Of a DNA stretch of 64,000 nt, positions 6,391-62,305 are shown piece after piece (position 1 is the stretch's first letter; every line of letters starts with the position of its first letter). Under the pieces are notes generated by a model, which was not told the origin of the DNA, did no database searches, and saw only the letters and a list, made by a program, of their open reading frames with translations. Made by a program: the position numbers and the translations under genes. The DNA is from an uncultured Pirellulaceae bacterium (GTDB taxonomy: Bacteria > Planctomycetota > Planctomycetia > Pirellulales > Pirellulaceae), in contig CAYRMD010000010.1 in NCBI GenBank assembly GCA_964425225.1, positions 16,712 through 80,711 on the forward strand. The letters are read 5' to 3'.

Positions 6391-6512
6391 AGGGTCGATT
6401 TACCCACTGCGCTTGAAATAGAGCTTCCGCATCGGAAAGGTCGATCAAGTATAGTAAACGAGTGGTCATAAACCCAAGAGGAAAACCGCAACCCGGGTGG
6501 GCAGCGGAACGG

Positions 6513-8001
6513 GTGTGTGCGTCTTGCTTGTAGGTGGGATTTTGGTGTAGCAGGCGGGCCATCGCGGAAGTTTCCCTATTTTCCGCGACAGGAATGGAAA
6601 CAAGGTGTCTATCCTGATGGTAGATGAAATTATCGGTTATTTGCCCGGCCTGGCGTCGCTATGCCTTTTTTGACTGGACCCAATGTGGGCCGATGTGGGT
6701 GCATCTTGGCAAAGGCGTCTCCTTGAGGCAGGGGCCGAGAGAGCCACGACCCCGCGGGACCGGCCAATTCAATTGAACGCATGAGCGCCAGGAAGACTTC
6801 GTGTAGGTTCCTTCTGATCGCCTACGTGGCCTTCGCCTCTTTGCGTTATGCCGGTTCGTCGAAACCTACCTATGACTGTCTGTGTGCCGGGGCGCCCGAC
6901 TGGCGGTGTTGCCGGACGCTCGGGTTCGACCAACGTTGGCGGTCAAGCGACGTATCAGAGCAGCTGGTTGAGTGGACCGACCGTGCGGTGCCGCCAAACG
7001 GTTACTTAACCCACTAGCCGCCGGTGCAAATTCCCATTCGGAAAACTGCCGTACAGCGATTTGGCAGCGTTTCTTTTGCTAGCGTCTTACAACATCTTGT
7101 TGGGCTTCGGCAGCTAGCGATTATCTCCGCCAATAAGCTACACCGCGTCTCAGCAATCTCGATAGTAAAAAGGTTTCCAAACGCCCGTGTCCAGCGACGT
7201 CGGCGTAGTGTGCCCCAAAGGGCAAGGTGTTTTAAAGCACCGTAACCGTTCCAGGAGAACGAGGTATACACAAGTGTGTCGATAATCATAGTCGTGAATC
7301 AAAGATGGTGGTACCGAGCCCGGGGACAGGCCATGCCGTCCCAGGGACAGGCACCATGGACAAGGGGACAGGCACCGCGGCCCTCGGCTTTGGTAATCTA
7401 CGACACCTAGAAAGAGTCGCGAAAAATATAGATTGGCTATTTTGGAGAACACAGTAATATTGGAAAAAATCTGTTACGGCCTCCAGTAACGCAAATAAAA
7501 CAGCCATTGTCGCGATACGGCGGCAAGCGGGTGCTGACATGGCTTACGTCGCGCTACATGGCGGGTTAGCGTGTTCGACGCAGTCGTTCGAGGCACGTTT
7601 TCTTCCGGGTATTGCTAGCACGAGATGTGGCGTGCGGTGTGACGAACCGTTAACGCTGTATGCGTCGGGATTGCAGTAGGTACGTGCGTCATCGGGAGTA
7701 GCAACGTACCTTAAAATCGCGTGTTTTTGAGAAAGCCTACTGCATAAGTTAATGTGCATCCCCTAGCCGTGGCCCGGCGAACCTGTTCCACCCGGGGAAT
7801 AGACGACCTGTCGGAGCGGGTTTACAAGCCGACTCGGTGGAAGAAGCTGGCCCGATGCGCATAGTGCCGCTTCCTAAGGGCCGCGGCTGCCTAACGGTCG
7901 CGGCTCTCGAAAGCTATCCCTCTTCGGAAGCAATACGGAGAACCCCGGTGATAGCCAACTCGATTGAAGCCACGTCCTACCGACAAAAAAGGCGCACACA
8001 C
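6513..8001 (+). repeat. Copy A of a ~1.5 kb ORF-less element with terminal inverted repeats
   Basis: Left end is gtgtgtgcgtcttgcttgt (6513). Right end is acaaaaaaggcgcacacac (7983-8001), its imperfect reverse complement. Aligns end to end with the reverse complement of 60727-62194. No ORF over 100 aa, and frames are not shared with copy B. Confidence 0.85.
7324..7373 (+). repeat. Three phased GGACAGGC(ACC) motifs inside copy A
   Basis: GGACAGGC starts at 7324, 7345 and 7366, exactly 21 nt apart. The same triple is in copy B with different spacer sequences. Confidence 0.8.
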
Positions 8002-8044
8002 GGTGGAGGGTGCCCCACTGGGGCAAAGTCCATGGTTCGGGTTT

Positions 8045-9038: not shown

Positions 9039-9065
9039 ATGCTTGTAGCGGGCAGACGGATCGAT

Positions 9066-9300
9066 GTGTGTGTCTTGCTTGTTGATGAGATTATTCCTTA
9101 GTTTCGCAGGTATAGTGTCCGTGTACCTTTTTCCGCTCAACCCATTGCCACCACATATACGGTCGATACGTGATTCCTGAAAAGGGCGTTCTGTTAAGCG
9201 AATGGAGTGATGTGACGCAGAGGCACCAAGACGCAGCGAAGATAACATCCAGCGTCAATGGCCTAACTGCGCCTTAGCGCCTTTGCGTTGCATTGGATTA
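9066..9300 (+). repeat. Short, truncated related element (copy D)
   Basis: Starts with the TIR-like gtgtgtgtcttgcttgttgatg (9066). Contains aatggagtgatg...aagacgcagcg...gcgcctttgcgttgcattgg (motif at 9277-9290). Fills the convergent gap before the lpxA stop. Confidence 0.55.
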
Positions 9301-9325
9301 GCGGACGGTTTGGCCGACGAACGGC

Positions 9326-10342: not shown

Positions 10343-11218
10343 TCAAGGCGAATTCTCATACCAACCCGGTTTCATGCCCAGTGCGGCAACCAGTTCTTCA
10401 GTGGCCTGTTGGAAGTGGCTCGGCAATTCGAGCCATGGCGCACATCGGCACAAGGCATGCGGATGCACTCTCTTGAGATTCTCACCCAACTCCATCTGCA
10501 AATCCGAGTATGAACAACCCCAAAAGAAGTGGGCGGCAATTCGTAACGGAGGATCGACAGTGGCAGTCGCTGACGATTCCCTACGTGTTTCTGGAGTTAA
10601 CAATTCGTCGATCGTAAGGAAAACAACTTGCCAACGTTCCCGAGCCTGAAGCTTTTCTACTTGCTCGACACACACAACTAATCCGGCCAGGGCCGATTGC
10701 CACTTAGCCTTGGTGCGCGGCGGCCATTGCCGTGCCACCAGCCGCGCTAGTGGTTGGCAGTTATGCCAATGCTGCCAAAGTTGGCCAAGCGTACAGCCAA
10801 ACCGAGGATGGCGCCAATCGGCCGCGATTTCGATCGCCGGTTCCAGAACGAATCGACGAAAGGCTAAACGCGGATGAGGAACGACCAGTTCGGGCCGTTC
10901 TTCTGTCTTCTGGTCATACAGCAGTATGTCGATGTCTAACGTGCGAGGGCCCCAACGGACTGTCCGTTGACGTCCCATTTGTTTTTCGATCTGTTGACAC
11001 TCCTGCCACGTTTCGTGGAGCGGCAGATCGGTGTGTAGATAGACCACACCGTTGACGTAATCCGGCTGTCCCCGGGGACCACCGACGGCTGAGTAACGAT
11101 GCCAGTGGCTACGGGCATGTAGTTGGCCGACGCGCGTAGCGAGTAAATCCACGGCGGTTTCGAGTTGAAGATAAGGATCGCCGAGATTCGAGCCGAGCCC
11201 CAGCAACAATGCGGCCAT
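10343..11218 (-). CDS. folK: 2-amino-4-hydroxy-6-hydroxymethyldihydropteridine diphosphokinase (HPPK) with ~130 aa C-terminal extension
   Basis: N-terminus LGLGSNLGDP...WGPRTLDIDILLYD...PHPRLAFRRFVLEP is the HPPK signature. The C-terminal third was not recognised. Confidence 0.85.
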   Translation of the reverse strand: MAALLLGLGSNLGDPYLQLETAVDLLATRVGQLHARSHWHRYSAVGGPRGQPDYVNGVVYLHTDLPLHETWQECQQIEKQMGRQRTVRWGPRTLDIDILLYDQKTEERPELVVPHPRLAFRRFVLEPAIEIAADWRHPRFGCTLGQLWQHWHNCQPLARLVARQWPPRTKAKWQSALAGLVVCVEQVEKLQARERWQVVFLTIDELLTPETRRESSATATVDPPLRIAAHFFWGCSYSDLQMELGENLKRVHPHALCRCAPWLELPSHFQQATEELVAALGMKPGWYENSP

Positions 11219-14115: not shown

Positions 14116-14559
14116 ATGTCAAGTCCTGCGGTTGGGCGGCCGTTAGAGTTGTTACTAATCGAAGACAATTTGATGGATGCCCAGGTTGCTATCCGAGCCC
14201 TGCGGGACGGTCAGGTGATTCACCGAATGACGTTAGTCGTCGACGGCGAAGAGGCGCTAGAATTCTTGAAACGATGCGGTCGGTTCAAACGTGCGCCTCG
14301 TCCGGACATCGTCTTGTTGGATCTCTTCTTGCCGAAACGCAGTGGCTTGGAAGTACTGGCAGAAATTCGGCAAGATCCGGAGTTGCACAACCTGCCGGTT
14401 GTGGTGTTGACTACCAGCGAAGATGAAGCCATGCGTGCCGAGTGTGAGCGATACGAAGTGGATTGCTACCTCGTGAAACCCGTCAACCTAGAAAAATTCA
14501 TCCGAGTGGTTCAGCAAATCAAGCGTTTGTTGCTTGAAGATGTCATCCTCCCGGTGTGA
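14116..14559 (+). CDS. Single-domain response regulator (CheY/Rcp1-like receiver)
   Basis: LLIEDNLMDA...DIVLLDLFLPKRSG...VVVLTTS...YLVKP gives the acidic pocket, phospho-Asp, Thr and Lys positions. RBS AAGGAAGAGG lies upstream. Confidence 0.9.
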   Translation: MSSPAVGRPLELLLIEDNLMDAQVAIRALRDGQVIHRMTLVVDGEEALEFLKRCGRFKRAPRPDIVLLDLFLPKRSGLEVLAEIRQDPELHNLPVVVLTTSEDEAMRAECERYEVDCYLVKPVNLEKFIRVVQQIKRLLLEDVILPV

Positions 14560-14593
14560 TTTCGGTTCATACCAAGGGCACAAGGAACGTGCC

Positions 14594-15262
14594 GTGTCGG
14601 ACGATCCGTTTTTACCGGCCCCTGCGCTTGGTATCTTAGAAACCCATGGCTTGACGCCGGCTTTAGTGGCGCTAGATGTGATGGAGAAGTCGGCTCCGGT
14701 ACGGGTCGTCGAAGCGGAGCTGAACGACGCCCGCGGGTACGTGCTGAAGATCGTCGGCCCGATTCCCGCCGTTGCGACTGCCTTGCAGGCAGCTCGAACG
14801 GTAGCCGAGCAAATGGGTGGCCATCCCATCGTTCACCAAATCGGTGCCCCCGATCGTCACGCGTGGAAAGGCGTACGAAGTGTTATCGAGTACAATCCGC
14901 TTATTCAGCAACCCATCGTATTTCAGCCCGATTCTCTACGAGCGGCTAGGCAAATTGTCCAGGAGGCACAGCCAGTGAGTCAACCGGAATCATTCGCGCT
15001 GGGGCTCATTGAAACCCAAGGTTTTACTGCGGTGTTCGAGGCCGTCGATACGGCATGCAAGACTGCCAACGTCGAAGTCATAGGCAAGGAAAAATTAGGG
15101 GGAGGTTATGTCACCGTGATTCTCAAAGGCGATGTGGCTGCGGTTAAAGCAGCGGTGCAAGCCGGTGCCCAACGAGTCGAAGGGCTCGGCAAGCTCATCG
15201 CTGCGCATGTGATTGCACGTCCCAGTCCCTCCGTTCTAAGTCTGCTTCCGCGATCCGGCTAG
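14594..15262 (+). CDS. Tandem-domain bacterial microcompartment shell protein (BMC-T type)
   Basis: Two BMC (Pfam00936-like) domains. The first is LGILETHGLTPALVALDVMEKSAPVRVV...GYVLKIVG. The second is canonical: LGLIETQGFTAVFEAVDTACKTANVEVIGKEKLGGGYVTVILKGDVAAVKAAVQAG. GTG 14594 follows AAGGAA; the alternative ATG 14534 overlaps the RR gene. Confidence 0.85.
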   Translation: MSDDPFLPAPALGILETHGLTPALVALDVMEKSAPVRVVEAELNDARGYVLKIVGPIPAVATALQAARTVAEQMGGHPIVHQIGAPDRHAWKGVRSVIEYNPLIQQPIVFQPDSLRAARQIVQEAQPVSQPESFALGLIETQGFTAVFEAVDTACKTANVEVIGKEKLGGGYVTVILKGDVAAVKAAVQAGAQRVEGLGKLIAAHVIARPSPSVLSLLPRSG

Positions 15263-18200: not shown

Positions 18201-18264
18201 CGGGCCTGTCCGATACCAGGAAAATCAAGGCGGCTGACGCTTGCCCGTAACACAGGAGGCATCT

Positions 18265-19254
18265 ATGCACATTCGTTGGCGCGGACTGGAACTGCCCAGC
18301 AGTGTCATTTGCGAAAAAGAAACGCTCAGTCCCACGTACGGCAAATTCATCGCCGAACCATTCGAGCGTGGTTTCGGTCACACGATCGGCAATAGTTTAC
18401 GGCGCATCTTGCTGTCGAGCCTGGAAGGTAGCGCCGTAACGCAGATCAAAATCCGCGGTGCCCAGCACGAGTTCACCACCATTCCCGGTGTGCTCGAGGA
18501 TGTGACAGATATTGTACTGAACGTAAAATCGCTCGTCGTCAAAAATCATTCCGACAGCACGAAGGTCATTACAGTTGAAAAGAATCGCGCCGGTGTTGTG
18601 ACAGGTGCCGATATCCGATGCGACTCGGATGTCGAGATCATCAACAAGAATCACGTACTGGCCACGTTGACGGCGGATGTCGACTTCATGATGGAAATGG
18701 TGGTAGAAAACGGCCGTGGTTATGTACCAGCTCATGAACACAGTGCCGGTGAGCACGAGATCGGAATCATACCGATCGACGCCGTTTTTAGCCCGGTAGT
18801 GCGTGTACGATATGAAGTGGAAGAGACCCGAGTCGGCCAAAAAACCAACTACGACAAGCTCACCATGGAAATTTGGACCGACGGCTCCATCTCACCAGAA
18901 ATGGCCCTGGTTGAAGCCGCCAAAATCTTAAGGAAGCATCTGAATCCCTTTATCCAGTATCAAGAGCTCGGGCCACGTGTTTTTGCCCAACCGCGTGGCC
19001 AGTTGGCTGGTTTCGATCCGATGCTCGAGTCGAAACTGAATATGTCAATTTCCGAACTGAAACTCTCCTCGCGTGCTACGAACTGCCTAGAAAATGAAAA
19101 CATCCATACGTTGCGTGATCTGGTACAACGGACCGAGGATCAACTATTGGAAGTTCGAAACTTTGGTGAAACGTCGTTAAATGAGGTGAAAGAAAAACTT
19201 GCTGAACTCGGCCTGCGACTCGGCATGCGATTGCCTACAGTGCCGCTGCGTTGA
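18265..19254 (+). CDS. rpoA: DNA-directed RNA polymerase subunit alpha
   Basis: [34 protein letters not shown], plus a C-terminal domain [30 protein letters not shown] lies before ATG 18265. Confidence 0.97.
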
Positions 19255-21836: not shown

Positions 21837-21950
21837 GTTGATTCGCCTTTTCCAACGAGGGATTGTGCTATGTGTCCCTTGTAATTGTAGGCGAGATCAC
21901 TGCTTCGTTGGGCTGGCCTAGCGTAGATCGACCGTTTTTCCGTTTAATCC

Positions 21951-22354
21951 GATGTGCGCCCGTGCGTGTCTCGGTACGCGATTCGTGGCAAACGGGTTTT
22001 ATTGAGTGAGTGGAGTAATGGAGCGCCAAGGGGCAAAGGCAAAACGAGCATCACTCCCAGCGCCCATCGCCTCACTCCGTGTTAGCGCCTTTGCGTTGAA
22101 CCGATTTCACTGCACCCTTACGATAGCAGCTTTGGTGAGCCGTGGCTTGTAAGGACGCCTTTGCCAAAAAAGGGCACGTATCGGGCCGCGTCCGCTGGAC
22201 CGGACAAAGGTAGACCTGCGCCAAGCTCGGCAAATGAAGGAACCGTTTCCGCTACCACCACGACGGACACACCATTTACACTCGTGCCGCGGAAAAACAG
22301 GCAAACTTTCCCGATGGCCTGCCCTTTGCGCCAAAACTAAGACGCACCCACATC
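21951..22354 (-). mobile_element. ~400 bp MITE-like short element with terminal inverted repeats (copy C)
   Basis: gatgtgcgcccgtgcgtgtct (21951-) pairs with agacgcacccacatc (-22354) as imperfect inverted repeats. The interior aligns with 61917-62194 of copy B (gcgcctttgcgttgaa at 22085, cgcctttgccaa, gccgcggaaaaacaggcaaactttccc) and with copy D. Confidence 0.55.
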
Positions 22355-22725
22355 AACAGACAGCGGCAATTGGTTACCTAAAGAAGCTGAAAAAAAAACG
22401 CTTAACGAAGACACAACGACTCCACGACGCGCTGGCCGTTGCGGCCCGCCCAGCTTTTCGTGACCTACTTCCTTTTTCGCCTTTGTCTTAGAGCATCTTC
22501 CTGCGAATAGCAAACTCCGGTCGAGCGCCTTTACCTGAGAGCCTCGACGAACGCATAACGTCCAGCCTCAGAACTGCCTCGAAAAACCCCCTGTTGCTCC
22601 CGACACCGTGACCCATGAATTTGCACTCATCGCATGCACGAATCATCATACTTCAGATGAAGAGCCACGATAGAAAGTCGGCATATTCCTGGTTGACGCT
22701 GCCGCTTTTGCTTGGGGAGGACAAC

Positions 22726-25659: not shown

Positions 25660-26775
25660 ATGGAACGTCGGCAATTCCATGACGGTCGTCGCGATGGCCT
25701 GATGCCGTTAGAAAGCCTGGATCTGGGCGAAGTGACCCGTTTCGCCGACCTTTTGCGTGCCATGGCCAAAACGGCTTTTTCTGGCCGCTCATTGGGAGAA
25801 GCCCTGGATATTCTGCTCCAGATGGCCACGGATCCGGAATGTCTGGTGGTACTGACTGTCTCGGGGGCCATGACCGTGGCTAAGCAGGGTCGCATCCTAT
25901 GTGAGTTGATCGATCGCGGGATTGTGCAGGTATTGGTTGCTACCGGTGCCCTTATTGCACATGGTCTTACGGAATCGATCGGATTGACCCATTACCGGTA
26001 CGACCCGTCGATGTCGGATCAGGAACTTTTCGAAAAAGGATACAACCGAGTCTATGACACCTTGGAGATGGAAGCCAATTTGAACGATGTGGAACGTTTA
26101 GTGCGTCAAGTGCTCAACGACCATACACCGCCTGATGGTGTTTGGTCGTCGGCCAGCCTGTGCAGGGCACTGGGCGAGCGATTGAGTGAGCGCGGTGAGG
26201 GGCCGGGCATTTTACGCAGCGCTTTCGAGCGCAATGTGCCCGTATTTATTCCCGCGTTTACCGATAGCGAGATGGGGCTGGATGTGGCCTGTTGGGCGAT
26301 CACTCGCCGCTTGAGCACATTGCCAAGCGGGGGGCAACCAGGACCGGAAGAGTTATTTCGAGCCGTGCCGCCGTTCAATCCGTTCCTGGATTTGCAGCAT
26401 TATGCACGGCTCATCTATCAGGCGAAACGGCTTGGCATTTTGACGTTGGGCGGGGGAGTGCCGCGCAATTGGGCCCAGCAAATCGGGCCCTATTACGATA
26501 TTCTCAACCACCGACTGGGAACTGGTCTGGCCGTGCGGCGATTCCAATATGGCGTGCGGATCTGCCCTGAACCGGCCCATTGGGGTGGCCTTTCCGGTTG
26601 CACCTACTCGGAAGGTGTCAGTTGGGGCAAGTTCGTACCGCCGGCTGAAGGGGGACGCTATGCCGAAGTTTATGCCGACGCAACTACGGTTCTGCCCTTG
26701 TTGGCTAAAGGCCTGCTCGAAGAACTGGAACGTATGGGTTGGAAAGGCCAAAAGCATTTCCATCACTGCACTTAA
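25660..26775 (+). CDS. Deoxyhypusine synthase family protein
   Basis: LTVSGAMTVAKQGRILCELIDRGIVQVLVATGALIAHGL...GYNRVYDTLEME...FIPAFTDSEMGLDV...LGGGVPRNW. Confidence 0.85.
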   Translation: MERRQFHDGRRDGLMPLESLDLGEVTRFADLLRAMAKTAFSGRSLGEALDILLQMATDPECLVVLTVSGAMTVAKQGRILCELIDRGIVQVLVATGALIAHGLTESIGLTHYRYDPSMSDQELFEKGYNRVYDTLEMEANLNDVERLVRQVLNDHTPPDGVWSSASLCRALGERLSERGEGPGILRSAFERNVPVFIPAFTDSEMGLDVACWAITRRLSTLPSGGQPGPEELFRAVPPFNPFLDLQHYARLIYQAKRLGILTLGGGVPRNWAQQIGPYYDILNHRLGTGLAVRRFQYGVRICPEPAHWGGLSGCTYSEGVSWGKFVPPAEGGRYAEVYADATTVLPLLAKGLLEELERMGWKGQKHFHHCT

Positions 26776-29572: not shown

Positions 29573-29697
29573 AAAAGAAGCGCCCCTGACTTATGCACAT
29601 AGACACAGGGCGTTCGAAAGTCGGGTTGCCAAGTTAAGCCCCGCCGATATATTTAGTGGTTTCGGCAGCCTGAATGGAGCACGCACTAAACCGACCA

Positions 29698-29770
29698 GCC
29701 AGCGTAGCTCAACCGGCAGAGCAGCTGATTTGTAATCAGCAGGTTGTGGGTTCAAGTCCCTCCGCTGGCT
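29698..29770 (+). tRNA. tRNA-Thr (anticodon UGU)
   Basis: GCCAGCG acceptor stem, anticodon loop TTTGTAA, T-arm GTGGGTTCAAGTCCCTC. Confidence 0.9.
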
Positions 29771-29877
29771 TTATAACGGTAAAGTACGACGGTTAGAACG
29801 TCAGGCGATGCGGGGTGTTGCCGTGCGGATGGATCCAGTGCACGATTAGGGAACACTACGGCAGGGATAAAAACCGA

Positions 29878-29959
29878 GGGGGGTTTCCCGAGTGGTCAAA
29901 GGGGCCAGACTGTAAATCTGGTGGCTCAGCCTTCGAAGGTTCGAATCCTTCACCCCCCA
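29878..29959 (+). tRNA. tRNA-Tyr (anticodon GUA), long variable arm
   Basis: GGGGGGT acceptor stem, anticodon loop CTGTAAA, long extra arm, T-arm GAAGGTTCGAATCCTTC. Confidence 0.9.
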
Positions 29960-30051
29960 TTGGCTGCGAGCCCTGTCGTGTTGGCCTCCCGTCGAGTCGA
30001 CGGTCAGGCACCAGGGTGCCGGTACCGTAGAGTTCCACGAAGATCCGTTTT

Positions 30052-30122
30052 GCGGGTGTAGCTCAGTGGTAGAGCAACAGCCTTCCAAGCTGAAGACGAG
30101 GGTTCGATTCCCTTCACCCGCT
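30052..30122 (+). tRNA. tRNA-Gly (anticodon UCC)
   Basis: GCGGGTGTAGCTCAGTGGTAGAGC, anticodon loop CTTCCAA, T-arm GAGGGTTCGATTCCCTT. Confidence 0.9.
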
Positions 30123-30155
30123 TCGGACCCATCGGTCCGGCGGACGCTGCGTGTG

Positions 30156-30228
<73 letters not shown>

Positions 30229-30424
30229 TTGTTCTGCCGCCGAGCTGAAGACCCGGACTGTGGGGGCAATTCAGCCAATGCCACTTTACGCGCTTGGCAG
30301 ACTCTGTCATAATTTGAGTTTTCTAGGTTGGCGCGACCTACCGGTTGTTAGGTGTGCTAGTAACGAAATGGTATTGGGGAGAGTGGTTCGAGGAAACCTT
30401 AGTAACACATAAGGCGAGTAAGCA

Positions 30425-31621
30425 ATGGCAAAGGAGGTATTTGAACGGAAAAAGCCGCACGTGAACGTCGGCACCATTGGGCACATTGACCACGGGAAAA
30501 CGACTTTGGCAGGCGCAATCTTGGCGGTTCAAAGCCGTAAGGGTTTGGCTCAGTTCAAGTCGTATGCAGAAATCGCCAAAGGCGGAACGGTTCGAGACGA
30601 AACGAAAACTGTCACGATTGCGGTAGCCCACATCGAATACGAGACCGAGAAACGCCACTATGCTCATATCGACTGTCCGGGGCACGCTGACTACATCAAG
30701 AATATGATCACCGGTGCGGCGCAAATGGACGGTGCGATTTTGGTCGTCTCGGCAGCCGACGGTCCGATGCCCCAGACGAAAGAGCACGTGCTGTTAGCTC
30801 GCCAGGTAGGCGTCCCAGCAATGGTCGTTTTCCTGAACAAGTGTGATTTGGTGGACGACCCAGAATTATTGGAACTGGTCGAAATCGATATTCGGGACTT
30901 GTTGAACAAGTACGAGTTTAACGGTGACGAAGTTCCCATTATCCGCGGGTCGGCCCTGCCTGCCTATCAGCGACCGGATGACCCGCAAGCTACCAAGTGC
31001 ATTGAAGAGTTGTTGGAGGCCATTGACAACTATATTCCGTTACCAAAGCGCGAAGAGGACAAACCGTTCTTGATGGCCGTAGAAGATGTCTTCTCGATTG
31101 AAGGTCGCGGTACGGTAGCTACCGGGCGAATCGAGCGCGGCGTGGTGCGAGTCGGCGACGAAGTAGAAATCGTCGGGTTGACCGATGAGCCTCGAAAGAC
31201 GACAGTCACCGGCGTGGAGATGTTTCGCAAGGTTCTTGAAGAAGGGCGAGCTGGTGATAACGTGGGGTGCCTGCTCCGGGGTATCAAGCGAGACGAAGTC
31301 GAGCGCGGACAGGTGCTTGCTAAACCCGGTTCGGTAAAACCTCACCGCAAATTCGAAGCCGAAGTCTACTGCTTGTCGAAAGACGAGGGTGGTCGTCATA
31401 CCCCGTTTTTCAGCGGGTATCGGCCCCAATTCTATTTCCGCACTACCGACGTCACCGGAACAGCTAACCTTGTTAAGGCCGATATGTGCATGCCCGGTGA
31501 CAATGTTCGGCTGCAAGTAGAATTGCTCAAACCTATTGCCATGGACGAAGGGGTGCGGTTTGCCATTCGGGAGGGTGGTAAGACGGTTGGTTCGGGAGTC
31601 GTTACGAAGATCCTCGAGTAA
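30425..31621 (+). CDS. tuf: Elongation factor Tu
   Basis: [19 protein letters not shown]-type G1 motif ([13 protein letters not shown]), DCPGHADY and NKCD motifs, 398 aa. Confidence 0.98.
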
Positions 31622-31714
31622 GGTTGAGCGATCAGGCTCCGTGTCCGGCCGGCGTATAGATAGAAGGCCGAACGGTCTGCTACAATAAGTCAACAGCGGC
31701 GTTATTCGGCCCAC

Positions 31715-31787
31715 AGGGGTGTAGCTCAACTGGTAGAGCACCGGTCTCCAAAACCGGGGGTTGCGAGTTCGAGTCCCGCCGCCCCTG
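31715..31787 (+). tRNA. tRNA-Trp (anticodon CCA)
   Basis: AGGGGTGTAGCTCAACTGGTAGAGC, anticodon loop CTCCAAA. Canonical position between tuf and secE. Confidence 0.85.
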
Positions 31788-31812
31788 CTCGAATCAGCCA
31801 TTGCCTCGCTCA

Positions 31813-60483: not shown

Positions 60484-60726
60484 AACGTGCGCGTGCTAAC
60501 CGAACCGACGGAGGGCGAGCGCAGTTTGTTGCCGGAACGCACAAGGCTCTTTTTGGGTTGGCCACCGCTCTATCCCGCAAGAGTCTTGATGTTCTTAACG
60601 GCTCACTGCCAATCGGCCTTGGTGTATTTACCCGCTAAATTGTTCACTGCGCCATACTATACAAGTGGGGAGAGCACGCATCGGGCAACCTACCGGCGAC
60701 TGGCAGTGACACGCTTTTATCGTTAC

Positions 60727-62194
60727 ATGTGTGCGTCTCACTTCTAGGAAGCACGTGGCTGTAATTGAGCCGGCTATCACCCGGATTCTCCCTATGGCTT
60801 CCGAAGATGCATGGCCTTACACAGCCGTGACTGTTAGGGAGCGGCGGTATGCAAATCGGACAGGGCTCTTTCGGGTCGGCGTGTGAAGCCGCTCCTACAG
60901 GTCGTGCATTCCCGGGGTGGACCAATTGCGCGGCGCTAACGCCATGGGAGGGAGATTTACTGATGCCGCAAGCTTTCGCAAGGACGCACGAATTAAGGAA
61001 CGTGCTGTTCCGATGACGCACGTACTTACAGTCACGACTTCGAACAGCGTCAAAGGCTCGTCACGTCGCTGGCCGAATCTTGTGCTAGCAAAACTCCCAA
61101 GCGAACGTGTGCCGATCGACAGCCTCGTGCCACCCAACCCCCCTTGTACGGCGACTAAAGCCATCTGGGCACCCGATCGCTAACTTATCCGGTCAATGGC
61201 GGCTTTCGCCACCTTACTGGGTAAAAGGCCAGTTTTTTCCAATGTTTCTTCTTTAGCTAACGTAGTCGCGTTTTCTTGTTTCGCCAGTCTTCCCATTTTC
61301 ATCAAATTTCCAAACCAAAGAGTCACGGTGCCTGTCCTCTTGCCTAAGGTGCCTGTCCCCGAGCCGACCGAGCCTGTCCCCGGGCCCGGTACCACCCTCT
61401 TTGGTATACGACTACGATTATCGACATACTTACGTATGGCCGGGTCACCTGGCACGGTTACGGTTATTTAGAACACTTTACTCCCTCGGCGTCCACGGTG
61501 CCGACATCGCTGGACACGCGCGCTTGGAAACCTCTTTACTCCCGAGATTGCTGAGATGCGGTGTTGCTTTTCGGCGTAGATAGTCGCTAGCAGCCAAGGC
61601 CCAAGAAGACGTTGACAGACGCTCGCTAAAGAAACGCTACCAAATTGCTGCACGGCAGCTTTCCGAAAGGGAATCGGCGCCGGCGGCTAGTGGGTTAGGG
61701 AAAACTGTTGGGCGGCACCGCACGATGGGTGCACTATACCCGTTGCTCCGATACGTTCCTCGCTGGCCGTCGTTATGCGAAGCCGAGCGTCCATCACCAC
61801 ACCGTCAGTTGCGCGGATTGTCGCACAGACAATTACAAGTAGGCTTCGGACGAATCAAATAGCGCAAAGACACCGCGGCCCACGCAGACGATCGCAATGT
61901 ACATGCAGCCTTCCTTGCGCCTTTGCGTTGAATTGAATTGGCCGCTCGCTTACGGTCGCAGCTCTGTGGAGTCCTTGCTCGACGCAGCGCCTTTGCCAAT
62001 AAGCACCCGCATCGGTTGACATTGGATTGGGCCGAAAAAAAGCATACCATGCCAGACCGGGCAAGTGACCGAACCATTTTATCTACCATCAAGACAGATA
62101 ACTCGTTTCCAATTCTGCCGCGAAAAATAGGCAAATTTCCGCCATGGTCCGCCTTTTAGACCAGAATCCCATCCACAATCAAGATGCACACACT
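60727..62194 (-). repeat. Copy B of the ~1.5 kb ORF-less TIR-bounded element (inverted relative to copy A)
   Basis: Ends are atgtgtgcgtctc (60727-60739) and cacaatcaagatgcacacac (62175-62194). Identical blocks shared with copy A: ccggcggctagtgggt 61680-61695 = rc of 7009-7024; ccgatgacgcacgtac 61010-61025 = rc of 7680-7695; ggctatcacc 60772 = rc of 7947; ggcggcaccgcac 61711 = rc of 6983. Confidence 0.85.
61330..61379 (-). repeat. Three phased GGACAGGC motifs inside copy B
   Basis: GCCTGTCC starts at 61330, 61351 and 61372, 21 nt apart. Spacers differ from those in copy A. Confidence 0.8.
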
Positions 62195-62305
62195 ACCGTT
62201 ACCAGTTGGCCTGGACGCCATAGCATTCTCTCGGCAGAATCCAGCCACCCGGATGATTTCTGCCTGAGCAACTTCGCGGGAACTCCTAACATAGGATCCA
62301 TTACG

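What the first reader, a model, noticed from the sequence alone, without database searches (positions are those of the whole stretch)
6513..8001. Pair of ~1.5 kb ORF-less, TIR-bounded elements with conserved blocks, in inverted orientation around the ribosomal/RNAP supercluster
Region 6513-8001 aligns end to end with the reverse complement of 60727-62194. My rough by-eye estimate is about 70% identity with many small indels.
- Both copies end in imperfect terminal inverted repeats (GTGTGTGCGTCT ... AGRCGCACACAC).
- Neither copy has an ORF over ~125 aa, and the short ORFs do not keep a shared frame across the alignment.
- Divergence is patchy. Perfectly conserved runs of 10-16 nt (ACCCACTAGCCGCCGG, GTACGTGCGTCATCGG, GTGCGGTGCCGCC, TCTCAGCAATCTCG, GGTGATAGCC, CTTCGGAAGC, CACCCGGGGAAT, ACGACCTGT) are separated by freely diverged, indel-rich stretches.

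This pattern suits a structured RNA or a DNA element with several protein-binding sites better than a neutrally decaying IS. I do not recognise it as any known RNA class, IS family or intron. The two copies bracket about 52.7 kb of essential genes.
Basis: partly seen in the sequence, partly recalled or inferred. Interest (0 to 1): 0.85.

Follow-up and report, generated by a model that had tools for sequence, protein, structure and literature searches.

The report
Old gene-less transposon fossils, Pirellulaceae genome
The two 1.5 kb look-alike stretches are old copies of a previously undescribed jumping-DNA family that carries no gene, in an uncultured Pirellulaceae-like bacterium; they are decaying at random rather than encoding a structured RNA, so the finding is real but fairly ordinary.

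Summary
Region 6513-8001(+) aligns end to end with 60727-62193(-) at 72.6-72.9% identity, both copies have imperfect ~27-nt terminal inverted repeats, and neither has any coding signal.

The "conserved blocks" are not special. Exact runs occur about as often as uniform 73% identity predicts, and the longest block is not conserved in two further copies I recovered from public assemblies (L037, L038).

Four long copies are equally diverged (69-73.5%) in a star-like pattern. Half of their columns are invariant, close to my estimate for uniform decay from one ancestor.

There is no Rfam match, no net covariation and no excess folding stability. Six-frame translations, including the family consensus, match no Pfam family and restore no long ORF.

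Copy B is flanked by a 9-bp direct repeat (GTAACGGTA/GTAACGATA, 8/9). A's flanks match 5/9. Combined P is about 2e-5.

A ~490-bp short derivative (21870-22360) and a fragment (9064-9303) lie in other intergenic spacers.

Best reading: fossils of one old burst of an IS-sized, ORF-less, non-autonomous transposable element with inverted-repeat ends, each inserted independently. The 52.7 kb bracketing is coincidental.

Still unexplained: the long gene-less interior, and three GGGACAGGCAC repeats phased at 21 bp.

The parts
6513..8001 (+). Copy A, complete long element (1489 nt)
   Evidence: Colinear with copy B at 72.6-72.9%; full-length nhmmer match.
60727..62193 (-). Copy B, complete long element (1467 nt)
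6513..6539 (+). A, 5' terminal inverted repeat (GTGTGTGCGTCTTGCTTGTAGGTGGGA)
   Evidence: 22/27 complementary to 7975-8001; position-weight-matrix score 28.5.
7975..8001 (-). A, 3' terminal inverted repeat
62167..62193 (-). B, 5' terminal inverted repeat
   Evidence: Position-weight-matrix score 18.5; end alignment.
60727..60753 (+). B, 3' terminal inverted repeat (shown as its reverse complement ATGTGTGCGTCTCACTTCTAGGAAGCA)
   Evidence: Position-weight-matrix score 27.1.
62194..62202 (-). B, flanking 9-mer GTAACGGTA (putative target-site duplication, 5' side)
   Evidence: Matches the 3'-side 9-mer at 8/9; P = 5e-5 against window 9-mer pairs.
60718..60726 (-). B, flanking 9-mer GTAACGATA (putative target-site duplication, 3' side)
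6504..6512 (+). A, flanking 9-mer GCGGAACGG (possible decayed target-site duplication)
   Evidence: Matches 8002-8010 (GGTGGAGGG) at 5/9; P = 0.05; the match count peaks at n = 9-10.
8002..8010 (+). A, flanking 9-mer GGTGGAGGG
7322..7376 (+). A: three direct repeats GGGACAGGC(AC) with starts exactly 21 bp apart (GGACAGGC at 7324, 7345, 7366), followed by the AT-richest and least conserved stretch of the element
   Evidence: 8 GGACAGGC sites in the window against 2.4 expected, 6 of them in A and B. GGACAGGCACC is the longest run invariant in all four copies.
61327..61381 (-). B: the same three phased repeats (GGACAGGC at 61372, 61351, 61330)
6605..6642 (+). A: internal sequence resembling the element end (GTGTCTATCCTGATGGTAGATGAAAT), about 95 nt from the 5' end. 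Fragments D and the left arm of C begin at this point of the element.
   Evidence: Weak: by eye plus nhmmer register, below the position-weight-matrix cut-off.
21870..22360 (-). Copy C: ~490-bp short derivative. 22354->21961 matches element positions 7-398 (about 68% identity). 21870->22009 on the other strand matches positions 100-228. Both outer ends carry the end-like motif in inverted orientation.
   Evidence: No flanking duplication (0/9 by eye, using the boundary I chose by eye).
9064..9303 (+). Fragment D: starts with an end-like motif (ATGTGTGTGTCTTGCTTGTTGATGAGA, score 20) and matches element positions ~98-351 weakly
   Evidence: nhmmer E = 2e-12.

Best explanation
A and B are two independently inserted, old copies of a multi-copy, non-coding DNA transposon family with terminal inverted repeats, in an uncultured Pirellulaceae-like planctomycete.

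Inferred mechanism, not shown: a transposase encoded elsewhere (not in this window) recognised the ~27-nt ends, consensus (G/A)TGTGTGCGTCT..TTGTAGG, perhaps with an end-like sequence about 95 nt inside the 5' end. It cut the target with a 9-bp stagger and inserted the element into intergenic DNA, leaving 9-bp direct repeats.

The family amplified in one burst. The copies have since drifted apart at a nearly uniform rate to about 70% identity and are probably immobile now. Short derivatives (C) and fragments (D) come from the same family.

Shown here: homology, ends, flanking repeats, absence of coding and RNA-structure signal, star-like divergence, multiple copies. Inferred: mobilisation in trans, the kind of transposase, and any role of the three 21-bp-phased repeats.
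For: - Ends and flanks: inverted ends on A (22/27) and B (16/27), with the same motif at five further ends. The 9-bp flanking direct repeats match 8/9 for B (P = 5e-5) and 5/9 for A (P = 0.05), both peaking at n = 9. Combined P is about 2e-5, and 13/18 = 72% equals the identity of the elements themselves.
- Copy number: at least five long copies. A and B are in the window. E is known from protein P0121 on a 64 kb NCBI contig and is colinear with A and B. F is in L037 and G in L038. There is also a short form C and a fragment D. Two assemblies break inside the element.
- Divergence pattern: pairwise identities are 68.9-73.5%. Quartet site patterns are 24/20/28, with 77-113 singletons per copy, which gives a star tree. 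Invariant columns are 50%, against about 47.5% that I estimate for uniform decay.
- Non-coding. The consensus restores no ORF (111 codons) and matches no Pfam family.
- No RNA signal.
- Location and independence: all copies lie in intergenic spacers next to unrelated genes. B has its own flanking duplication, and the composite-transposon test is negative.
- Absence in relatives: the element is absent after map in the two nearest relatives, at 76% and 68% map identity.
Against: - No transposase with matching ends was found or could be looked for, because the contigs of the source MAG (metagenome-assembled genome) are not retrievable.
- A's flanking repeat is weak (5/9) and C has none.
- No empty site was seen in a relative with the same flanks on both sides.
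- Length is well preserved (1489 against 1467 nt) despite about 27% divergence, which could also mean constraint.
- The GGGACAGGCAC repeats keep an exact 21-bp phase in A, B and G.
- The antisense 3' third folds better than column shuffles (z -2.7 to -4.7).
- Only four aligned copies were available, so power against weak constraint is limited.
- The P value for the flanking repeats is uncorrected for about 10 tested lengths and for the choice of boundary; corrected it is about 2e-4 to 5e-4.
Confidence: 0.7

Rival explanations
1. A family of paralogous genes for one or more large non-coding RNAs, for example an antisense transcript of about 550 nt running from the 3' end of the element to a hairpin plus T-run near position 960-990. 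The 'inverted ends' would then be a closing helix.
For: - Length and colinearity are kept in five copies.
- Strand-asymmetric consensus energy in the 3' third: z -2.7 to -4.7 antisense against about 0 sense.
- By eye, the antisense hairpin plus T-run has different stems in A, B and F (sequences and alignment A9).
- Nine pairs have changes on both sides, against 3.6 in shuffles.
Against: - No Rfam match even at E <= 10.
- The covariation term is +0.19 kcal/mol, and about 31 unpaired cells outnumber 9 compensations. The 8-bp AGGTACGT/ACGTACCT stem is broken once in each of B, F and G without compensation.
- The structure was derived from the same alignment, so that comparison is biased towards it.
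- Compensatory pair counts equal those of column-shuffled alignments.
- Single-sequence z-scores are +0.46, -1.70, -0.45 and -0.68.
- Structure conservation index (consensus energy over mean single-sequence energy) is 0.13-0.61 on the sense strand and 0.21-0.60 on the antisense strand.
- A closing helix does not explain the 9-bp flanking direct repeats or the short derivative C.
Confidence: 0.1
2. A cis-acting DNA module kept for protein binding, such as an origin-like or regulatory scaffold. Three sites phased at 21 bp on one face of the helix lie next to an easily melted AT-rich stretch, and the module was duplicated several times in the genome.
For: - GGACAGGC occurs three times at exactly 21-bp spacing in both A and B. 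The window has 8 sites against 2.4 expected, and 0 of 100 shuffles reach 8.
- GGACAGGCACC is the longest run invariant in all four copies.
- F has lost exactly one unit, and E keeps at least two.
- The adjacent region is the AT-richest and least conserved part of the element.
Against: - An 11-nt invariant run is within the null (mean longest 9.4, 95th percentile 13).
- There is no Rep-like or other gene inside or consistently beside the copies, no DnaA-box cluster and no parS.
- The rest of the 1.5 kb decays uniformly.
- The repeats could be an inherited minisatellite. A MITE containing a minisatellite is described in Porphyromonas gingivalis (PMC4596501, title and abstract seen).
- This reading is not exclusive of the transposon reading.
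Confidence: 0.07
3. Fossils of an autonomous insertion sequence of an unknown family, whose transposase gene has decayed beyond recognition in every copy.
For: - The size (1.5 kb) and end length (27 nt) are typical of IS elements, given as about 800-2000 bp with ends of 10-50 bp (PMC10969869).
- The 9-bp flanking repeats.
Against: - The majority consensus of four star-like copies should restore much of an ancestral ORF. It gives 111 open codons (median 150, maximum 174 over tie-breaks), no more than the single copies at 105-162.
- No Pfam match at E <= 1 in any frame of A, in four of B's six frames, or in any frame of the consensus.
- No 3-nt periodicity in the mismatches.
Confidence: 0.08

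Closest known systems
[quoted passage not shown] Correia, Chunjie, QMITE1/2), as reviewed in PMC10969869
   Same: Terminal inverted repeats of 4-30 nt. Flanking direct repeats that fade with age. No transposase. Multi-copy. Intergenic location. Families include full-length, truncated and degenerate members. Copy C (~490 bp) fits the definition.
   Different: The long form is 1.47-1.49 kb, against a typical <500 bp. It is not AT-rich (55% GC, the same as the host). Its transcript-like strands are not unusually stable. No parent IS is known.
Insertion sequences with 9-bp target duplications (from my own knowledge: IS4-family members such as IS10 and IS50, IS1, IS903, IS256)
   Same: Size of about 1.5 kb, imperfect inverted ends of about 27 nt, 9-bp flanking repeats.
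   Different: No transposase ORF in any copy or in the consensus. No sequence comparison with ISfinder was possible, so the family of the mobilising enzyme is unknown.
Mobile insertion cassettes (MICs, e.g. MIC231 of Bacillus cereus; from my own knowledge)
   Same: IS-sized or larger units bounded by IS-type inverted ends, lacking a transposase and mobilised in trans.
   Different: MICs carry passenger genes. This element has no conserved ORF at all.
Large ornate bacterial non-coding RNAs (OLE, GOLLD, ROOL, HEARO; Rfam)
   Same: Long non-coding stretches conserved between copies, with no ORF.
   Different: No covariance-model match, no net covariation and no stability excess. These RNAs have no flanking target duplications.

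Membership tests
Non-autonomous TIR transposable element (MITE in the broad sense) | Terminal inverted repeats | tested here: met
   A 22/27, B 16/27; seven ends share one consensus.
Non-autonomous TIR transposable element (MITE in the broad sense) | Target-site duplication flanking the ends | tested here: met
   B 8/9 (P = 5e-5), A 5/9 (P = 0.05), combined P about 2e-5. C has none by eye. F and G lack one or both ends.
Non-autonomous TIR transposable element (MITE in the broad sense) | No transposase gene | tested here: met
Non-autonomous TIR transposable element (MITE in the broad sense) | Multiple copies at unrelated sites | tested here: met
   A, B, C and D in the window; E, F and G elsewhere; flanking genes unrelated.
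Non-autonomous TIR transposable element (MITE in the broad sense) | Small size (<500 bp) | tested here: not met
   The long form is 1467-1489 nt. Only C (~490 bp) fits. Size criterion from PMC10969869.
Non-autonomous TIR transposable element (MITE in the broad sense) | An autonomous element with the same ends that supplies the transposase | not testable with these tools
   Source genome contigs are not retrievable. No transposase among 20 window ORFs scanned.
Autonomous insertion sequence | Transposase ORF between the ends | tested here: not met
Structured non-coding RNA (any Rfam family, or a new one) | Match to a curated covariance model | tested here: not met
   Nothing at the gathering score. 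Only two chance-level hits at E <= 10 (E = 3.2 and 5.6) in A, none in B, L037 or L038.
Structured non-coding RNA (any Rfam family, or a new one) | Base pairs kept by compensatory change | tested here: not met
   Compensatory pair counts equal shuffled alignments on both strands. Covariation term +0.19; 9 double-sided changes against about 31 unpaired cells. Power is limited to four copies.
Structured non-coding RNA (any Rfam family, or a new one) | Folding more stable than shuffled sequence | tested here: not met
   z = +0.46, -1.70, -0.45, -0.68.
Composite transposon (two inverted copies mobilising the 52.7 kb between them) | Target duplication at the outer ends of the pair, none around each copy | tested here: not met
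   Outer flanks 0/9, inner flanks 2/9. B has its own 8/9 duplication.
Mobile insertion cassette | Passenger gene(s) between IS-type ends | tested here: not met
   No conserved ORF.
Iteron-type replication origin | Phased direct repeats next to an AT-rich stretch, with a Rep gene and DnaA boxes nearby | tested here: inconclusive
   Three repeats at 21-bp phase are present and the next ~100 nt are AT-rich by eye. There is no Rep-like gene and no DnaA-box cluster.
Group II intron (ORF-less) | Domain V/VI and 5' GUGYG recognised by Rfam models | tested here: not met
   The 5' end reads GUGUG, but no intron model matches even at E <= 10.

The most novel reading that the evidence does not exclude
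The 1.4 kb gene-less interior is not junk but functional non-coding cargo that the element needs or spreads. It could be an antisense RNA with its own terminator, or a phased protein-binding array that recruits a host-encoded recombinase. That would make this a selfish mobile element that is entirely non-coding yet IS-sized, and kept intact by selection; length and colinearity are preserved in at least five copies at about 30% divergence.
Probability: 0.1. Interest if true: 0.7.

Novelty: new member of a known kind. Interest (0 to 1): 0.3.

Why it matters
The practical value is modest.
- It defines a repeat family, with its ends and a 9-bp target duplication, in an uncultured Pirellulaceae lineage.
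- It explains why assemblies of these genomes break at this sequence.
- It shows that at least three database 'proteins' (P0121-P0123) are translations of non-coding repeat DNA.
- It is a worked example that exact 10-18-nt blocks in a 73%-identical pair are what chance gives.

The open point of biological interest is why an element of IS size has no gene, even in its reconstructed ancestor.

Tried and rejected
- Ribosomal RNA or another known RNA: rejected (Rfam).
- Protein-coding gene or pseudogene: rejected on stops, indel lengths, periodicity, synonymous/nonsynonymous counts, and Pfam on six-frame translations of A, four frames of B, and the consensus. Searches failed because the tool refuses translations with stops. 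PHROGs and NCBIfam were never run after that, and B frames +2 and -0 were not scanned.
- Collection scans with exact motifs:
  - Genome contigs gave 22 chance hits only.
  - Metagenome contigs, scanned twice, gave none.
  - Viral contigs, scanned three times, gave none, or unrelated 21-nt coding tandem repeats.
  - Exact-match scans are insensitive for a family whose copies are about 70% alike.
- blastn against plasmids and phages: none.
- Exact look-ups of window proteins and of P0001 and P0121: not on record, so the source genome could not be read beyond the window.
- Synteny: map in the two nearest relatives is followed by other genes, with no element, but the right flank differs, so this is not a clean empty site.
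- Protein alignments A5 and A10 were discarded because the ORFs were in different frames.
- A six-frame 'polyprotein' query of the consensus returned nothing, not even the known hits. I treat that as a failed search, not a negative result.
- My own dinucleotide-shuffle script hung and was replaced by strand folding.
- The long-range pairing of the 18-mer with 7518-7532 in A is not kept in B, so it is chance (by eye).
- Composite transposon: rejected. Origin or partition site: no DnaA-box cluster and no parS.
Full report
**Observation.** Region 6513-8001 (+), copy A, and 60727-62193 (-), copy B, are homologous over their whole length.
- blastn gives 72.6% identity over about 1505 columns, E = 0.
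- A global MAFFT alignment gives 72.9% over 1474 ungapped columns, with 15 indels of 1-17 nt.
- Homology stops sharply at both ends.
- A has a 27-nt imperfect terminal inverted repeat, 22/27. B's ends match each other 16/27 by my count of the sequences.

**Not coding.**
- All six frames of both copies carry 9-31 stops.
- Only 1 of 15 indels is a multiple of three, and mismatches fall 136/137/127 on the three phases.
- In every stretch that is open in both copies, nonsynonymous differences far outnumber synonymous ones, with no third-position excess.
- Six-frame translations give no Pfam match at E <= 1. This covers all six frames of A and four of B.

**The 'conserved blocks' are chance.**
- At 73% identity, 12.3 +/- 3.1 exact runs of >=11 nt are expected in 1474 columns; 16 are seen. 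By my estimate a run of 18 is expected about once.
- With four copies (below), invariant runs of >=8 number 4 against 2.1 +/- 1.5, and the longest (11 nt) lies inside the null range.
- Some regional heterogeneity is real but mild (p = 0.003 for 50-column windows). Alignment columns ~526-630, ~782-880 and ~1160-1214 are somewhat better kept, and ~905-1000 is worst.

**More family members in the window.**
- Profile searches found a third locus, C. On the minus strand, 22354->21961 matches element positions 7-398 at about 68%. On the other strand, 21870->22009 matches positions 100-228.
- Fragment D at 9062-9303 also matches.
- A weight matrix built from the four ends of A and B also picks out 9064(+) (score 20) and 21870(+) (score 13.8).
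- C is therefore a ~490-bp unit whose two outer ends carry the end motif in inverted orientation.
- All of these lie in intergenic spacers, and the flanking genes are unrelated to each other.

**More copies outside the window.**
- Exact-motif scans of the genome, metagenome and viral collections found no relative, and blastn against plasmids and phages found none.
- The source is an NCBI contig of 81,574 bp. Its nearest named relatives are Pirellulaceae and Pirellulales MAGs at <=76% identity in map. Its contigs cannot be fetched.
- Searching with the translation of an antisense stretch that is open in both copies worked.
  - P0121 (182 aa, NCBI contig of 64,352 bp) is colinear with A 7575-7085 and B 61137-61619 at about 42% amino-acid identity across a frame shift. 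This is copy E.
  - An exhaustive profile search added P0122 and P0123, whose contigs could be read.
- Copy F is L037 10619->9369 (element positions 251-1506), cut by the contig end.
- Copy G is L038, a 1202-nt contig lying wholly inside the element.
- P0122 is also on an NCBI contig of 26.9 kb.
- Contigs that end inside the sequence are what assemblers produce at repeats.

**Pattern of divergence.**
- A, B, F and G are 68.9-73.5% identical in all pairs.
- The three possible quartet groupings are supported by 24, 20 and 28 sites, with 77-113 private changes per copy. This is a star tree.
- Half of the ungapped columns are invariant, against about 47.5% that I estimate for four lineages decaying uniformly to 70% pairwise identity.
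- This is the signature of one amplification burst followed by independent, nearly neutral decay.

**No RNA structure.**
- Rfam gives nothing at the gathering score, and nothing credible at E <= 10 in A, B, L037 or L038.
- On the two-copy alignment, RNAalifold finds 28 'compensatory' pairs on one strand and 32 on the other. Sliding windows show the same numbers as column-shuffled alignments, with z mostly within +/-1.
- With four copies, the antisense strand of the 3' third has consensus energies below the shuffles (z -2.7 to -4.7), while the sense strand does not.
- However, its covariation term is +0.19 kcal/mol. About 31 cells are unpaired against 9 double-sided changes, and stems such as AGGTACGT/ACGTACCT are broken once in each of B, F and G without compensation.
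- Single-copy folding z-scores are +0.46, -1.70, -0.45 and -0.68.
- I read this as ancestral self-complementarity that is eroding, not a maintained fold.

**No coding ancestor.** A majority consensus of the four star-like copies should restore an ancestral gene. It yields at most 111 open codons (median 150, maximum 174 over random tie-breaks), no more than the single copies at 105-162. It also has no Pfam match in any frame.

**Evidence of insertion.**
- With the ends defined by the seven-end alignment, B is flanked by GTAACGGTA and GTAACGATA. That is 8/9, with P = 5e-5 against 200,000 equally spaced 9-mer pairs from the window.
- A is flanked by GCGGAACGG and GGTGGAGGG, 5/9, P = 0.05.
- In both, the match count peaks at n = 9 (for A, tied with n = 10).
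- Jointly P is about 2e-5, before correction for about ten tested lengths. The 72% identity of the flanks equals that of the elements.
- The outer flanks of the A-B pair match 0/9 and the inner flanks 2/9. The two copies therefore inserted separately, and the 52.7 kb between them is not cargo.
- After map, the two nearest relatives have a 137-200-bp spacer and different genes, with no trace of the element.
- Element GC (0.547-0.553) equals the window's (0.554), so the copies are long-resident.

**Interpretation.**
- The best-supported account is a family of non-autonomous DNA transposons with inverted-repeat ends and 9-bp target duplications. They were mobilised in trans by a transposase that I could not look for.
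- No transposase was found among 20 window ORFs.
- The family fits the MITE concept in every tested respect except size. The long form is 1.5 kb, whereas prokaryotic MITEs are typically <500 bp and IS elements 800-2000 bp (PMC10969869).
- It is thus an IS-sized element without a gene, even in its consensus.

**What remains unexplained.**
- The function, if any, of the interior.
- The three GGGACAGGCAC repeats at an exact 21-bp phase in A and B. The window has 8 GGACAGGC sites against 2.4 expected. The repeats are kept in G, reduced by exactly one unit in F, and visible in E's translation.
- The strand-asymmetric consensus energy.
- A weak antisense hairpin plus T-run whose stem differs between copies (by eye).
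- These leave about 10% for a reading in which the interior is functional non-coding cargo.

**Verdict.** This is a real feature, correctly located, and a new family of a known kind of element. The structured-RNA and conserved-block interpretation is not supported. Interest is low to moderate.

Noticed in passing
window 29697-31788: tRNA-Thr(tgt), Tyr, Gly(tcc) and Thr(ggt), then tuf (30425-31621), then tRNA-Trp, leading into the secE-nusG-rplKAJL-rpoBC block. This is the classic conserved arrangement.
   Followed up: partly
window 14534-15262: An ORF with two BMC (bacterial microcompartment shell) domains lies a few kb upstream of rpoA (18241-19254).
   Followed up: no
window 25660-26775: A deoxyhypusine-synthase homologue (Pfam DS, E = 3.5e-74) in a bacterial genome.
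   Followed up: no
window 8004-8032: A 14+14-nt near-palindrome (TGGAGGGTGCCCCA / TGGGGCAAAGTCCA) starts 3 nt after A's 3' end. It is not present next to B.
   Followed up: no
P0121, P0122 (L037 10001-10246), P0123 (L038 384-848): Three database 'proteins' of 81-182 aa are translations of the antisense strand of this non-coding repeat, so they are gene-calling artefacts.
   Followed up: yes
L037 (ends at 10620) and L038 (whole contig): Two independent Logan assemblies (SRR11582145, SRR11582148) have contigs that end inside the element. One contig of 1202 nt consists only of the element, which is the typical assembly breakage at a repeat.
   Followed up: partly
window 6782-6800 and 6838-6852 (A); equivalent positions in B, C, F, G: The 5' module contains the motif GCAAAGGCG twice in direct orientation and once inverted (AACGCAAAGGCGC ... 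GCGTCTTTGCGTT, about 50 nt apart). This makes that part quasi-palindromic, and explains why fragment D matches it on both strands.
   Followed up: partly
L026-L036 (IMG/VR contigs): GGACAGGC repeated every 21 nt also occurs in viral contigs, but there it belongs to long 21-nt tandem repeats unrelated to this element.
   Followed up: yes
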